The notes under the pieces are model-generated. The model was given only the letters and a program-made list of their open reading frames with translations, was not told the DNA's origin and made no database searches. This document shows positions 1,433 through 57,303 of a stretch of 64,000 nucleotides of DNA, piece by piece (position 1 is the first letter of the stretch; each line of letters starts with the position of its first letter). Position numbers and translations under genes: made by a program. Source of the stretch: a virus; the IMG/VR virus record IMGVR_UViG_3300046690_000279, positions 1-64,000 of that record; one strand, 5' to 3'.

Positions 1433-1508
1433 GCCGCATTAGCTCAGTCTGGCTAGAGCGCCCGCTCGTTGAGGCGGGAGGTCCTCGGTTCAAATCCTGG
1501 ATGCGGCA
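1433..1508 (+). tRNA. tRNA-like gene with an atypical 8-nt anticodon loop (TCGTTGAG)
   Basis: Acceptor GCCGCAT/ATGCGGC, D-arm GCTC/GAGC, TTCAAAT T-loop; anticodon stem CCCGC/GCGGG closes 8 nt; one T-stem mismatch. Confidence 0.7.
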
Positions 1509-1573
1509 CGGAGCGCGGGACATATGCGGGGCATACACTCCCTAGGCACTGGCAGACAGTGGCTCTCGCGCAA

Positions 1574-1644: not shown

Positions 1645-1648
1645 CGTA

Positions 1649-1936
1649 GGTGCAGGCAGTAGGCCTTGACCGGTCCACGGTATGCACCCTGGGTGAAACC
1701 GGCTCGTACTGGCCAGCTAGTCACTGGTTGCAGCGCGCGGCGAGTAGCCCTAAATCTTGCTTCGCGTGCGGTGTGCTGGCTATTGGCGCGGCCAGTGGGA
1801 ACACAATTCCCAGCCCGTTAAAGGGCGCCGGTTCGATTCCGGACCATGCGAAGCACTTGGTAAGGGGCAGCGTCAGCGCTGGAAATGCCACCACCCCCAA
1901 GCATCGGTGCCGCGTAGCGGAATGGCCTGGTGCCAA
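1649..1936 (+). ncRNA. Unidentified multi-stem structured RNA with a 100-nt insert
   Basis: Conserved with 41902..42080; stems GGTGCA/TGCACC, CCGG/CTGG, CAGCGC/GCGCTG, CCCT/AGGG; covarying terminal hairpin. Confidence 0.65.
1757..1856 (+). ncRNA. tRNA-like insert: long closing stem, three hairpins and a T-arm
   Basis: TGCTTCGCGTG/CATGCGAAGCA stem; CCGG-TTCGATT-CCGG T-arm; absent in copy B; CTTG direct repeat at the junctions. Confidence 0.6.
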
Positions 1937-5907: not shown

Positions 5908-6060
5908 ATGAAGTTCAGTCGACGCCTGATAGGCGAAATCGCCGATGTCACTGGCATTGGTTGTCTGGTAGGCGCCGGTTGGGCGTTCAACACGATTCTT
6001 GGTCTGGCGCTCGCTGGCGTAGGGCTTATCGTCATTAGCGCTGTGGTGGTGGACAAGTGA
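5908..6060 (+). CDS. Small membrane protein between terL and portal
   Basis: 50-aa hydrophobic ORF; conserved at 46081..46233. Confidence 0.7.
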   Translation: MKFSRRLIGEIADVTGIGCLVGAGWAFNTILGLALAGVGLIVISAVVVDK

Positions 6061-9510: not shown

Positions 9511-9534
9511 GTCTGACCTAGTGGCGGTGGGGGT

Positions 9535-9556
9535 CACATACGGATATCCGTATGTG
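9535..9556. promoter_or_regulatory. 22-bp operator
   Basis: Perfect palindrome after the capsid stop. Confidence 0.8.
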
Positions 9557-9588
9557 CCCCTGCCCCCTCCCCTACCCGAGAGGAACGC

Positions 9589-17091: not shown

Positions 17092-17102
17092 TTACTGGGG
17101 AG

Positions 17103-17124
17103 CACATACGGATATCCGTATGTG
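17103..17124. promoter_or_regulatory. 22-bp operator with extended arms (GGGGAG/CTCCCC)
   Basis: 34-bp perfect palindrome 17097..17130. Confidence 0.8.
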
Positions 17125-17147
17125 CTCCCCTCACTGAAGGGTTACCG

Positions 17148-35508: not shown

Positions 35509-35516
35509 TTGGGAGG

Positions 35517-35538
35517 CACATACGGATATCCGTATGTG
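35517..35538. promoter_or_regulatory. 22-bp operator
   Basis: Perfect palindrome. Confidence 0.8.
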
Positions 35539-35564
35539 CTCCCATCATCCCTAAGGCGGAGAGA

Positions 35565-41823: not shown

Positions 41824-41897
41824 GCCCCCTTAGCTCAGTGGTCTAGAGCGTCCGCTTGTCGTGCGGAGGGTCACCGGTTCGAATCCGGTAGGGGGCG
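41824..41897 (+). tRNA. tRNA-Asp(GTC)
   Basis: Cloverleaf; TCCGC-TTGTCGT-GCGGA; G73 discriminator. Confidence 0.85.
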
Positions 41898-41901
41898 CGC
41901 A

Positions 41902-42080
41902 GGTGCAGACAATAGGCCGTGACTGGCGCGACGATATGCACCCTGGGTGAAACCGGCGCAGACTGGCCAGCTTGTCACTGGTTGCAGCGCGCGGCGAGTA
42001 ACCCTAAATCTTGGTAAGGGGCAGCGTTAGCGCTGGAAACGCCACCACCCCCATGCAGCGGTGAACTGGTCCGCTGCCAA
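41902..42080 (+). ncRNA. Unidentified multi-stem structured RNA (insert-free form)
   Basis: Homologue of 1649..1936. Confidence 0.65.
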
Positions 42081-42492: not shown

Positions 42493-42566
42493 GGGCAGGG
42501 GCAGACGTGCCCATTAGGTTGAAGTGCCGCCAAGGCACGAGGGGTTCAAATCCCGCCTGCCCGCCA
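42493..42566 (+). ncRNA. tRNA mimic without a canonical anticodon arm
   Basis: Acceptor GGGCAGG/CCTGCCC plus G-CCA, TTCAAAT T-loop, two small hairpins; copy B only. Confidence 0.55.
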
Positions 42567-57248: not shown

Positions 57249-57258
57249 CACTGGGGAG

Positions 57259-57280
57259 CACATACGGATATCCGTATGTG
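57259..57280. promoter_or_regulatory. 22-bp operator with extended arms
   Basis: Perfect palindrome. Confidence 0.8.
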
Positions 57281-57303
57281 CTCCCCTCTTCGGAGGGTTA
57301 CCA

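What the first reader, a model, noticed from the sequence alone, without database searches (positions are those of the whole stretch)
1757..1856. 100-nt tRNA-shaped insert nested inside the large RNA, flanked by CTTG direct repeats
Seen: copy B reads TAAATCTTGGTAAGGGG. Copy A has exactly 100 extra nt at this point, with CTTG at both junctions. The insert is self-contained: an 11+ bp closing stem, hairpins CTGGC/GCCAG, GGGAA-CACAA-TTCCC (5-nt loop) and GCCC/GGGC, then a CCGG-TTCGATT-CCGG T-arm. This resembles a class II, tRNA-Sec or allo-tRNA-like shape without a readable anticodon. It sits in the loop of the CCCT/AGGG stem, so the host RNA fold can be kept. Inference: a mobile or excisable tRNA-mimic module, or a processing site that splits the large RNA.
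Basis: partly seen in the sequence, partly recalled or inferred. Interest (0 to 1): 0.72.

Follow-up and report, generated by a model that had tools for sequence, protein, structure and literature searches.

The report
Non-decoding tRNA look-alike cassette in phage
The 100 extra bases are a real, evolutionarily conserved tRNA-shaped RNA gene that cannot read codons; it is one exchangeable cassette in the tRNA gene array of soil Streptomyces-type phages and sits between two separate small RNAs, not inside one large RNA.

Summary
Copy A (1757-1856) has exactly 100 nt that copy B lacks at 42010-42013, with CTTG at both junctions, and all the named hairpins are present. The insert (core 1759-1854) belongs to a conserved family, with 8 distinct full-length and 2 short members in uncultured TG1/phiC31-like Streptomyces phage contigs. 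All lie in tRNA arrays, but in different slots. The fold is a 10-bp closing stem, a long D arm with a UGGC loop, an "anticodon" hairpin with a 5-6-nt loop, a variable arm and a 4-bp T arm with UUCGAUU. It is kept by compensatory changes in every helix. The short members lack the anticodon and variable arms altogether, so the family does not work by decoding.

The "large RNA" reading fails. The upstream 107-nt RNA closes on itself: its CCC pairs upstream with GGG, with covariation in 23 sequences. The downstream module has its own UUGG/CCAA stem, and in relatives other tRNAs or modules occupy this junction. The CTTG repeat consists of module-boundary sequence and is not a target-site duplication.

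The most likely role is a tRNA mimic excised by tRNA-processing enzymes that acts through its tRNA shape. Its function is untested.

This scan has already noted similar anticodon-less tRNA mimics in other Streptomyces-phage arrays.

The parts
1759..1854 (+). Long-stem tRNA-like element (LS-TLE), the functional core of the 100-nt insert
   Evidence: Covariance model R1 scores it at 110.6 bits and finds relatives at 83-118 bits. The five-helix fold is 96.4% paired, with 10 pairs changed on both sides.
1759..1768 (+). 5' strand of the 10-bp closing stem (GCUUCGCGUG), which pairs with 1845-1854
   Evidence: 4 of the 10 pairs change on both sides across 7 sequences. Two more inner pairs differ compensatorily between the two short forms.
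1769..1775 (+). Conserved junction CGGUGUG. GUGUG is invariant in all full-length members.
   Evidence: Alignments A4 and A5. It can alternatively pair with CAUGC (1845-1849). That pairing is 98% compatible but shows no change on both sides.
1776..1795 (+). D-arm analogue: stem CUGGC/GCCAG with loop UAUUGGCGCG. RNAalifold extends it to 9 bp with a UGGC tetraloop.
   Evidence: Pairs 18-37 and 21-34 change on both sides. RNAalifold and the single-sequence MFE folds of L008 and L282 give the long stem with a 4-nt loop.
1797..1811 (+). Anticodon-arm analogue GGGAA-CACAA-UUCCC with a 5-nt loop
   Evidence: The stem covaries (GGGAA/UUCCC, GGGGA/UCCCC, AGGGA/UCCCU). The loop is CACAA, CGCAA, CCGCAA, or a 10-nt loop in other members, and the arm is absent in the short forms.
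1813..1826 (+). Variable-arm hairpin GCCC-GUUAAA-GGGC
   Evidence: The stem covaries: GCCC/GGGC, ACCU/AGGU, ACCC/GGGU, ACCCG/CGGGU.
1828..1842 (+). T arm: a 4-bp stem CCGG/CCGG with the canonical T loop UUCGAUU
   Evidence: It is invariant except in L282, which has CUGG/CCAG, a compensatory change.
1845..1854 (+). 3' strand of the closing stem (CAUGCGAAGC)
   Evidence: See the 5' strand.
1646..1758 (+). Upstream neighbour: a conserved ~107-nt structured RNA ending ...GGCGAGUAGCCCUAAAUCUU. It is a separate unit and not part of the element.
   Evidence: It is present in Streptomyces phages TG1, Shawty, Shaeky and Shady and in about 19 IMG/VR contigs. RNAalifold on 23 sequences finds 12 covarying pairs and closes the RNA with GGGU/RCCC. 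Rfam has no family for it.
1857..1936 (+). Downstream neighbour ('module G'): UUGGUAAGGGGC...CCACCACCCCC...CCAA, running up to tRNA-Asn
   Evidence: It occurs directly after the 107-nt RNA (copy B, L015, L016, L027) or after a different module (L011, L033), always starting with UUGG. No covariation was tested, and its single-sequence fold is not better than shuffles.
42010..42013 (+). The empty junction in copy B (AAAU CUUG GUAAGG)
   Evidence: R1 finds no family member anywhere in copy B.

Best explanation
The insert is a gene for a non-decoding tRNA mimic. It belongs to a conserved family, here called the long-stem tRNA-like element (LS-TLE), which is carried as an exchangeable cassette in the tRNA arrays of TG1/phiC31-like Streptomyces phages.

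Shown:
- It has a five-helix, tRNA-Sec-like cloverleaf maintained by compensatory substitutions.
- It occupies tRNA-type slots, 0-4 nt from neighbouring tRNAs, in at least four different positions in different phages.
- In copy A it lies exactly at the boundary between two independent RNA modules.
- The anticodon-loop equivalent is 5-6 nt or 10 nt, varies in sequence, and is deleted together with the variable arm in the short family members. The closing stem, the D-loop GG and the T loop (the tRNA 'elbow') are kept.

Inferred:
- The array is transcribed as one precursor.
- RNase P / RNase Z-type enzymes recognise the elbow plus the stacked helix and release the element. This also defines the 3' end of the upstream 107-nt RNA and the 5' end of the downstream module.
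- The released ~96-nt RNA acts through tRNA shape and not through decoding, for example by binding or titrating a host or phage protein that recognises tRNA.
- Its presence in A and absence in B reflects cassette gain or loss by recombination at the short conserved linkers (AAUCUU / CUUG), not transposition.
For: Exact 100-nt indel.

Family members found by pattern and covariance-model searches are L282, L069/72, L070/71/76, L074/75, L290, L008 and L029 (83-118 bits), plus the short forms L009/14/19 and L073.

Covariation: 96.4% of cells are paired, 10 pairs have changes on both sides, and every helix has at least one. Slid controls give 0-3, and 0 of 500 shuffles reach the observed value. The MAFFT-only alignment gives the same picture. 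RNAalifold predicts the same fold de novo, and it is the MFE and centroid fold of L008 and L282 on their own.

Slots vary. The element follows the 107-nt RNA in A, L009 and L282. It takes the first slot after the leader in L069-76 and L290. It lies between tRNA-Asp and another tRNA-like gene in L008/29, and between tRNA-Asn and tRNA-Leu in L073. Rhizosphere contigs join it directly to tRNA-Leu or tRNA-Asn (tables 5 and 5c).

Where it is flanked by true tRNAs on both sides it is not needed as punctuation, which argues for a function of its own.

The upstream RNA closes on itself, and what follows it is a tRNA or tRNA-like unit in about 18 of 23 distinct loci.

The element is not called as a tRNA by Rfam or by ARAGORN at default settings.
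Against: There are no expression or processing data, because no RNA library holds the region.

Only 8 full-length and 2 short distinct sequences are known. All come from related phages, largely in similar rhizosphere or soil metagenomes, so shared ancestry inflates the apparent conservation.

A mutually exclusive, canonical-looking fold exists: a 7-bp acceptor GUGUGSU/AYCRYGC flush with the T stem, and a 7-nt loop if one A-U pair opens. It is 98% compatible. It would give anticodons ACA (A), GCA (L282) or AAA (L069/70), so a decoding or chargeable form is not excluded. No partner protein is known.
Confidence: 0.6

Rival explanations
1. It is an unusual but genuine tRNA of the allo-tRNA / selC*-type. 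After removal of a base-paired leader and trailer it adopts a 7/4-type cloverleaf. It is charged (Ser identity from the long variable arm and G73, or Cys identity from GCA) and is used for decoding or recoding by the phage.
For: ARAGORN at a relaxed threshold folds A as tRNA-Cys(ACA) and L282 as tRNA-Cys(GCA). At default settings it calls L070 tRNA-Phe(AAA). The alternative acceptor helix is 98% paired in 7 sequences and would explain the invariant GUGUG. The 4-bp T stem, long variable arm and long D stem with tetraloop are the traits of allo-tRNAs, some of which are active in translation (PMC5389517). L008 and L029 would have U at the discriminator position and GCA in the loop.
Against: The alternative acceptor shows no change on both sides. 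It also overlaps the D stem, whose pairs 18-37 and 21-34 do covary, and copy A itself breaks alternative pair 18-92 while keeping 18-37. The leader-trailer pairs covary, which is not expected for discarded flanks. Loops are 5, 6 or 10 nt, with C at position 33 if opened. The anticodons would be inconsistent across the family and include A34. The short forms have no anticodon arm at all yet keep compensatory changes. No CCA is encoded. The Rfam tRNA-Sec score is 19-27 bits against a gathering score of 47.
Confidence: 0.12
2. It is pure punctuation: a tRNA-shaped cutting signal whose only role is to let RNase P / RNase Z separate the neighbouring small RNAs. The released piece itself is inert.
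For: In three lineages it directly follows the 107-nt RNA, at the place where most relatives have a true tRNA. The short forms retain just the 'top half' of a tRNA (acceptor-like helix, elbow, T arm), which is what processing enzymes recognise.
Against: In L008/29, L073 and L069-76 it is flanked by real tRNAs or by the leader, so no extra signal is needed there. Copy B, L015, L016 and L027 join the same two RNAs with no tRNA-like unit between them. The anticodon-like and variable hairpins and the outer closing-stem pairs are kept by compensatory change, which a mere cutting signal would not require.
Confidence: 0.15
3. It is a decaying tRNA pseudogene, a leftover of array turnover with no function.
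For: It has a non-standard anticodon loop. Copy A also carries two other tRNAs with 8-nt and 6-nt loops. Presence or absence varies between 90%-identical phages.
Against: There are compensatory changes in all five helices across members that differ at about a quarter of variable positions. Pairing is 96% against 26-48% in slid controls. The same odd architecture is kept in at least 8 distinct sequences and in different array slots.
Confidence: 0.05
4. It is a DNA-level mobile element (MITE-like, with terminal inverted repeats and a CTTG target duplication), or an insertion nested in, and excisable from, one large RNA.
For: CTTG lies at both junctions in A. AATCTT lies at both junctions of the short form in L009. 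The closing stem looks like terminal inverted repeats.
Against: Both repeats are explained by conserved module ends. There are no flanking repeats in L069-76, L073, L008 or L290. The record holds a single copy. No true copy turned up in pattern scans of 185,579 species genomes or in a model search of 151 Streptomyces genomes. Every true copy lies in a phage tRNA array. The supposed host stem CCCU/AGGG is contradicted by covariation.
Confidence: 0.04

Closest known systems
allo-tRNAs and selC* tRNA-Cys (tRNA-Sec-like tRNAs with 8/4 or 9/3 acceptor branches; Mukai et al. 2017, PMC5389517)
   Same: Both have a 4-bp T stem, a long variable arm and a long D stem capped by a tetraloop. Both give a weak hit to the tRNA-Sec model. 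Both occur in soil metagenomes and phage tRNA clusters, and some allo-tRNAs are suspected to be non-translational.
   Different: Here the closing helix is 10 bp and is separated from the T stem by a 2x2 mismatch, so it is not a continuous 12-bp branch. The anticodon loop is 5-6 or 10 nt, not 7. No free or encoded 3' CCA end lies next to the helix. The short isoforms lack the anticodon and variable arms.
Bacterial Y RNAs: D. radiodurans Yrn1 and YrlA (Chen et al. 2014, PMC4201824; Rfam RF02553)
   Same: These are non-decoding tRNA mimics with D- and T-arm analogues closed by a long stem formed by the 5' and 3' ends. Yrn1 has the same D - short 'anticodon' hairpin (6-nt loop) - T order. YrlA-type RNAs occur in phages.
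   Different: The phage record has no Ro60/TROVE gene. The GNCGAAN0-1G Ro-binding motif is absent from the 5' strand. YrlA has the permuted T - acceptor - D order. The element gives no RF02553 hit.
Phage T4 species 1 and 2 stable RNAs (rnaC, rnaD) in the T4 tRNA cluster (from my own knowledge, not checked in a paper here)
   Same: They are small stable non-tRNA RNAs encoded within a phage tRNA gene cluster. They are presumably released by the tRNA-processing machinery, and their function is unknown.
   Different: There is no sequence or structural relation. The T4 RNAs are not cloverleaf-shaped with a T loop in the way this element is.
Viral and cellular tRNA-like processing modules (MHV68 vtRNA-miRNA units, MALAT1 mascRNA) (from my own knowledge)
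   Same: They are uncharged tRNA-shaped units placed next to other small RNAs, so that RNase P or RNase Z cutting defines the neighbours' ends.
   Different: Those are eukaryotic systems. Here the element also occurs between true tRNAs, where no extra signal is needed.

Membership tests
Canonical decoding tRNA (Rfam RF00005) | Score at or above the family threshold, or a call by a tRNA finder | tested here: not met
   There is no RF00005 match on 1757-1856 even at E<=10. ARAGORN at default settings makes no call in the window.
Canonical decoding tRNA (Rfam RF00005) | 7-nt anticodon loop with U33 and a consistent anticodon | tested here: not met
   The loops are CACAA, CGCAA, CCGCAA, or a 10-nt loop. 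The arm is absent in the short forms.
Canonical decoding tRNA (Rfam RF00005) | 7-bp acceptor stem stacked directly on a 5-bp T stem (12-bp branch) | tested here: not met
   The covariation-supported fold has a 10-bp stem, two unpaired nt on each side, and a 4-bp T stem. An alternative 7/4 fold is compatible but lacks covariation.
Canonical decoding tRNA (Rfam RF00005) | T loop UUCRANY with G53-C61, and GG in the D loop (elbow) | tested here: met
   UUCGAUU is closed by G-C, and GG is invariant in the D loop of all members, including the short forms.
tRNA-Sec (Rfam RF01852) | Gathering score of 47 bits | tested here: not met
   19.2 bits for copy A and 26.9 bits for L008.
tRNA-Sec (Rfam RF01852) | UCA anticodon and an 8/5 (bacterial) acceptor branch | tested here: not met
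   No member has UCA, and the branch is 10+4 with an internal mismatch.
tRNA-Sec (Rfam RF01852) | Long D stem with a 4-nt loop, and a long variable arm | tested here: met
   RNAalifold and single-sequence folds give a 9-bp D stem with UGGC and a 4-5-bp variable arm. The inner three D pairs are G-U rich and show no change on both sides.
allo-tRNA / selC* tRNA (Mukai 2017) | Continuous 12-bp acceptor branch composed as 8/4 or 9/3 | tested here: not met
   The T stem is 4 bp, but the closing stem is 10 bp and is not contiguous with it.
allo-tRNA / selC* tRNA (Mukai 2017) | Aminoacylation (Ser, Ala or Cys identity) and use in translation | not testable with these tools
   This needs charging assays. 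Column 98 is G in most members and column 99 is U in L008/29, so the identity elements are ambiguous.
YrlA / Y RNA | Encoded next to a Ro60 (TROVE) gene | tested here: not met
   PF05731 is not found in the 81.7-kb phage record, while the controls rang.
YrlA / Y RNA | Ro60-binding helix motif (GNCGAAN0-1G on the 5' strand) and a match to the RF02553 model | tested here: not met
   The 5' strand is GCUUCGC (CGCACGC in L008). CGAAG occurs only on the 3' strand and is not conserved in L008. There is no RF02553 match on the element.
MITE-like mobile element | Consistent target-site duplication and many dispersed copies | tested here: not met
   Flanks differ between contexts. The record holds one copy. 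There is none in 151 Streptomyces genomes and no true hit in the genome-wide pattern scans.

The most novel reading that the evidence does not exclude
LS-TLE RNAs are phage-made decoys: stable, uncharged tRNA-Sec-shaped molecules that titrate a host factor that recognises tRNA shape. That factor could be a tRNA-targeting anti-phage nuclease, a nucleotidyltransferase toxin, or a processing or modification enzyme. On this reading, cassette swapping between closely related phages records an arms race. A second unexcluded twist is that the element is bistable, switching between the locked long-stem form and a canonical cloverleaf that could be processed and charged.
Probability: 0.2. Interest if true: 0.8.

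Novelty: new variant of a known kind. Interest (0 to 1): 0.55.

Why it matters
tRNA genes in phages are usually explained by codon usage or by escape from host tRNA nucleases. Here a tRNA-shaped RNA is conserved although it cannot decode, and its relatives have even lost the whole anticodon half. This suggests that phages of Streptomyces use the tRNA shape itself as a tool. Together with the other odd units in the same arrays (the 107-nt RNA, CCA-ended mimics, tRNAs with 3-, 6- or 8-nt loops), it points to an unannotated repertoire of small RNAs that ride on the tRNA-processing machinery. The family gives a compact, testable case: a 96-nt long form, a 62-nt short form, and natural presence/absence in two 90%-identical phages. 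It can be used to ask what such mimics bind and whether they affect infection.

Tried and rejected
- A scan of IMG/VR for the 15-mer GGGAACACAATTCCC gave 34 loci. All were chance matches to the palindromic hairpin only.
Essentially all were coding-sequence chance matches.
- Pattern scans of genome contigs gave only chance hits apart from one Streptomyces prophage that carries the 107-nt RNA (L155).
- blastn of three family members against 50,697 cultured phage genomes gave no real match. The best matches, the 'tRNA-OTHER' genes of Bxz1-like mycobacteriophages, share only the T arm (R1 20 bits) and are ordinary-size tRNAs.
- The model search of 151 Streptomyces genomes was blank. Only a few candidates per genome were scored, so this means 'not found in those searched'.
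- Y RNA idea: rejected for membership. The RF02553 hit in L008 at 5963-6022 is the known dimeric-tRNA artefact.
- Sequencing runs: no RNA holder is listed, so nothing can be said on expression. The DNA contigs laid on the region served only to show further module junctions.
- The sigma-70 and terminator consensus scans of 1000-2400 found nothing, which is uninformative for Streptomyces phage promoters.
- Polarity of the indel (gain in A or loss in B) could not be resolved.

Full report
**What the window is.** The window is the first 64 kb of an 81.7-kb IMG/VR virus record with terminal repeats. It holds two ~40.2-kb phage genomes head to tail. Copy A starts at 1 and copy B at about 40376, and they are 80-98% identical segment by segment. 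The closest cultured relatives are Streptomyces phages TG1, Shawty, Shaeky and Shady, which are phiC31-like. The local gene order is:
- serine integrase end
- a small Cys-rich ORF (Stc1 domain)
- about 1 kb without ORFs that holds a tRNA array
- a C92-like amidase
- HNH endonuclease
- small and large terminase

Rfam and ARAGORN call five tRNAs in A and four in B. Two of those in A have 8-nt and 6-nt anticodon loops.

**The observation.** Aligning the two arrays shows exactly 100 extra bases in A at 1757-1856. CTTG lies at both junctions, and B reads TAAATCTTGGTAAGGGG at 42005-42021. The 100-mer folds better than all 200 shuffles (z -3.66). Rfam gives only a weak tRNA-Sec match (19.2 bits, threshold 47), and ARAGORN at default settings gives nothing.

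**It is a family, not a one-off.** A scan of IMG/VR for the T arm plus 3' strand, then for closing stem plus T arm, then for the D-arm core, recovered relatives. These were confirmed with covariance model R1.
- Full-length members: L282, L069 (=L072), L070 (=L071, L076), L074 (=L075), L290, L008 and L029, at 83-118 bits.
- 62-nt short forms: L009 (=L014, L019) and L073. They share the closing stem and T arm but lack the anticodon-like and variable hairpins.

On 7 distinct full-length sequences the five-helix structure is 96.4% paired, and 10 of 28 pairs show changes on both sides. At least one such pair occurs in every helix. Sliding the 3' partners by 1-3 columns drops pairing to 26-48% and gives 0-3 such pairs, and no shuffle of 500 reaches the observed values. 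A plain MAFFT alignment of 5 sequences gives the same picture. RNAalifold predicts the same helices without being told, extending the D stem to 9 bp with a UGGC loop. The same fold is the MFE and centroid of L008 and L282 alone.

L008 and L029 change the outer closing-stem sequence (GCUUCGC to CGCACGC) with matching changes on the other strand. The stem is therefore conserved as a helix and not as a sequence. The two short forms differ from each other by compensatory changes in the closing stem (positions 8-10) and in their D-like hairpin (UGAGU/ACUCA against UGACG/UGUCA).

**It does not decode.** The loop of the anticodon-like hairpin is CACAA in A, CGCAA in L282, CCGCAA in L008/29, and a 10-nt ACUUAAAGCG-type loop in the L069, L070, L074 and L290 group. 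The whole arm is missing in the short forms. The invariant parts are the T loop UUCGAUU, the GG of the D loop and the junction GUGUG. Selection therefore acts on the tRNA elbow and the stacked helix, not on an anticodon.

**It is not nested in a large RNA.** The sequence just upstream (1646-1758) is a ~107-nt element ending GGCGAGUARCCCUAAAUCUU. It is present in TG1, Shawty, Shaeky and Shady and in about 19 IMG/VR contigs. It always begins right after a tRNA. In 23 distinct sequences RNAalifold finds 21 pairs, 12 of them with compensatory changes. It closes the molecule by pairing GGGU of UGGGUGAAACC with RCCC of CCCUAAAU. For example, Shady has GGAC with GUCC. The CCC is thus used inside this RNA, not with the AGGG downstream.

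What follows the tail AAAUCUU differs from phage to phage:
- a true tRNA (Shawty, Shaeky, Shady, L008/29, L010, L018, L020, L073)
- the module UUGGUAAGGGGC... (copy B, L015, L016, L027)
- a CCA-ended module (L011, L023, L025, L033, L034)
- an LS-TLE (A, L282, L009 group)
- another tRNA-like unit (L031, L155)
- an ORF (TG1)

The UUGG module also occurs behind the CCA-ended module (L011, L033). There it still starts with UUGG, which pairs with CCAA at its end.

So the left CTT(G) in A is the tail of the 107-nt RNA plus G1 of the element, and the right CTTG is the start of the next module. Family members in other slots have no flanking repeat:
- caat|...|gcga in L069
- gc|...|ctac in L073
- cag|...|caa in L008

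L009 has AATCTT on both sides, which is again the conserved tail repeated.

Rhizosphere contigs laid on the region show the element joined directly to tRNA-Leu (1812 to 2063) and, via 10 other letters, to tRNA-Asn (1854 to 1943). This is further evidence of module shuffling.

**Where it is and is not found.**
- One copy in the record.
- None in copy B.
- No true hit in cultured phages by blastn.
- No true hit in pattern scans of one genome per 185,579 species.
- Not found in 151 Streptomyces genomes searched with R1.

All true copies lie in phage tRNA arrays, spaced 0-4 nt from neighbouring tRNAs. This argues against a MITE-like element.

**An alternative fold.** At a relaxed threshold ARAGORN folds A and L282 as tRNA-Cys (ACA and GCA). 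It uses GUGUGSU (1771-1777) as the acceptor 5' strand against AYCRYGC (1843-1849), flush with the T stem, and opens one A-U pair to make a 7-nt loop. L070 is even called tRNA-Phe(AAA) at default settings. Counted on the alignment, this acceptor is 98% paired but has no pair changed on both sides. It overlaps D-stem positions that do covary, and copy A breaks pair 18-92 while keeping 18-37. I therefore prefer the long-stem fold. I cannot exclude a switch or a processed, chargeable form, and the invariant GUGUG still needs an explanation.

**Comparison with known families.**
- *tRNA-Sec-like allo-tRNA / selC\* group (PMC5389517).* This is the closest shape. The element shares the 4-bp T stem, the long variable arm, and the long D stem with a tetraloop. 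It fails the defining continuous 12-bp (8/4 or 9/3) acceptor branch and the 7-nt anticodon loop.
- *D. radiodurans Y RNA Yrn1 (PMC4201824).* This is the closest layout among non-decoding mimics: D arm, short 'anticodon' hairpin with a 6-nt loop, and T arm inside a closing stem. However, the phage has no Ro60 gene, the Ro-binding motif is absent, and RF02553 does not match.
- *Context.* By context it recalls the stable RNAs in the T4 tRNA cluster and tRNA-like processing units of MHV68 or MALAT1. This comparison rests on my own knowledge.

**Mechanism.**
- Shown: a conserved fold, tRNA-type placement, modular exchange, and loss of decoding features.
- Inferred: co-transcription with the array; release by RNase P / RNase Z-type enzymes that recognise the elbow and helix; and action as a tRNA-shaped ligand.

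Because the element also sits between genuine tRNAs, I rate 'mimic with its own function' above 'mere punctuation'. I cannot say whether A gained the cassette or B lost it. The adjacency of the 107-nt RNA to an LS-TLE occurs in three lineages and the adjacency to module G in four, so either could be derived by recombination at the shared CUU(G) linker.

**Relation to earlier notes of this scan.** Notes on this window (e1-6107343, e1-6107344, e1-6107346) describe the array as tRNA-punctuated structured RNAs. My results agree with the general picture and contradict the single ~180-nt RNA. Notes on other genomes (e1-5405353, e1-5948225, e1-5405356, e1-5958069 and others) report anticodon-less tRNA mimics in other Streptomyces-phage arrays, so the class has been seen before in this scan on other DNA. 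I did not test those.

Noticed in passing
window 1646-1758 and 41899-42012; L002-L005 and about 19 IMG/VR loci: A ~107-nt structured RNA (GGUGCA...UGGGUGAAACCGG...CUAGUCA hairpin...GGCGAGUARCCCUAAAUCUU) is embedded in tRNA arrays, always just after a tRNA. It is conserved in cultured Streptomyces phages TG1, Shawty, Shaeky and Shady, where it is unannotated. It has 12 covarying pairs in 23 sequences and no Rfam family.
   Followed up: partly
window 1433-1509 and 1574-1645: Two tRNA genes in copy A have an 8-nt (UCGUUGAG) and a 6-nt (CAAGGG) anticodon loop, where copy B has one normal tRNA-Asp(GTC) at 41824-41898. The alignment joins the 5' half of the first to the 3' half of the second.
   Followed up: no
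window 42493-42566 (copy B only): A 74-nt tRNA-like gene has a perfect 7-bp acceptor stem, discriminator G and an encoded CCA. It also has a D hairpin with a GACG tetraloop, a hairpin with a 5-nt loop GCCAA in place of a normal anticodon arm, and a weak T arm (UUCAAAU). It is not called by ARAGORN or Rfam. Fold z = -2.57.
   Followed up: partly
L023, L025, L033, L034, L011, L009, L015 (for example L025 just after ...CCCTAAATCTT): A recurrent ~68-nt module, CCCGCUGGUGUAAGCAGCACAUCCCGUCAAGGGAAAGUCCGGCACGCAAUCCGGGCGGGUCGCCA, has a four-way tRNA-like outline and an encoded 3' CCA but no T-loop consensus. Rfam does not recognise it.
   Followed up: no
L008:6185-6256 (-) and the equivalent in L029: The gene right after the LS-TLE scores as a tRNA (49.6 bits) and has normal acceptor, D and T arms. 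Its anticodon stem, however, is capped by a 3-nt loop (GGGG-UCG-CCCC), so it is another non-decoding tRNA look-alike.
   Followed up: no
L155 (Streptomyces sp. NPDC006540 contig), after the 107-nt RNA: Two tRNA-shaped genes with the acceptor stem UCCUCCG/CGGAGGA carry 20-30 extra structured bases in place of the anticodon loop. This is the only chromosomal (prophage) copy of the 107-nt RNA found in the genome collection.
   Followed up: no
window, 16 sites (for example 9528-9567, 17096-17135, 35510-35549, 57252-57291): A 22-bp palindrome, CACATACGGATATCCGTATGTG, with half-site variants CGGAGGTG before genes, recurs 8 times per phage genome at equivalent positions. It looks like an operator or terminator-type repeat of phiC31-like phages.
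   Followed up: no
whole record (window 1-64000; copy B starts at about 40376): Two related but distinct ~40-kb phage genomes lie head to tail in one contig classed as having terminal repeats. This may be an assembly join of two co-occurring strains and not a real tandem molecule.
   Followed up: no
window 1857-1936 and 42012-42080: Module G (UUGGUAAGGGGC-hairpin-GGAAAYGCCACCACCCCC-hairpin-CCAA) lies directly before tRNA-Asn. It is conserved in at least 6 arrays. A possible pseudoknot was not tested for covariation, and the single-sequence fold is not better than shuffles.
   Followed up: partly
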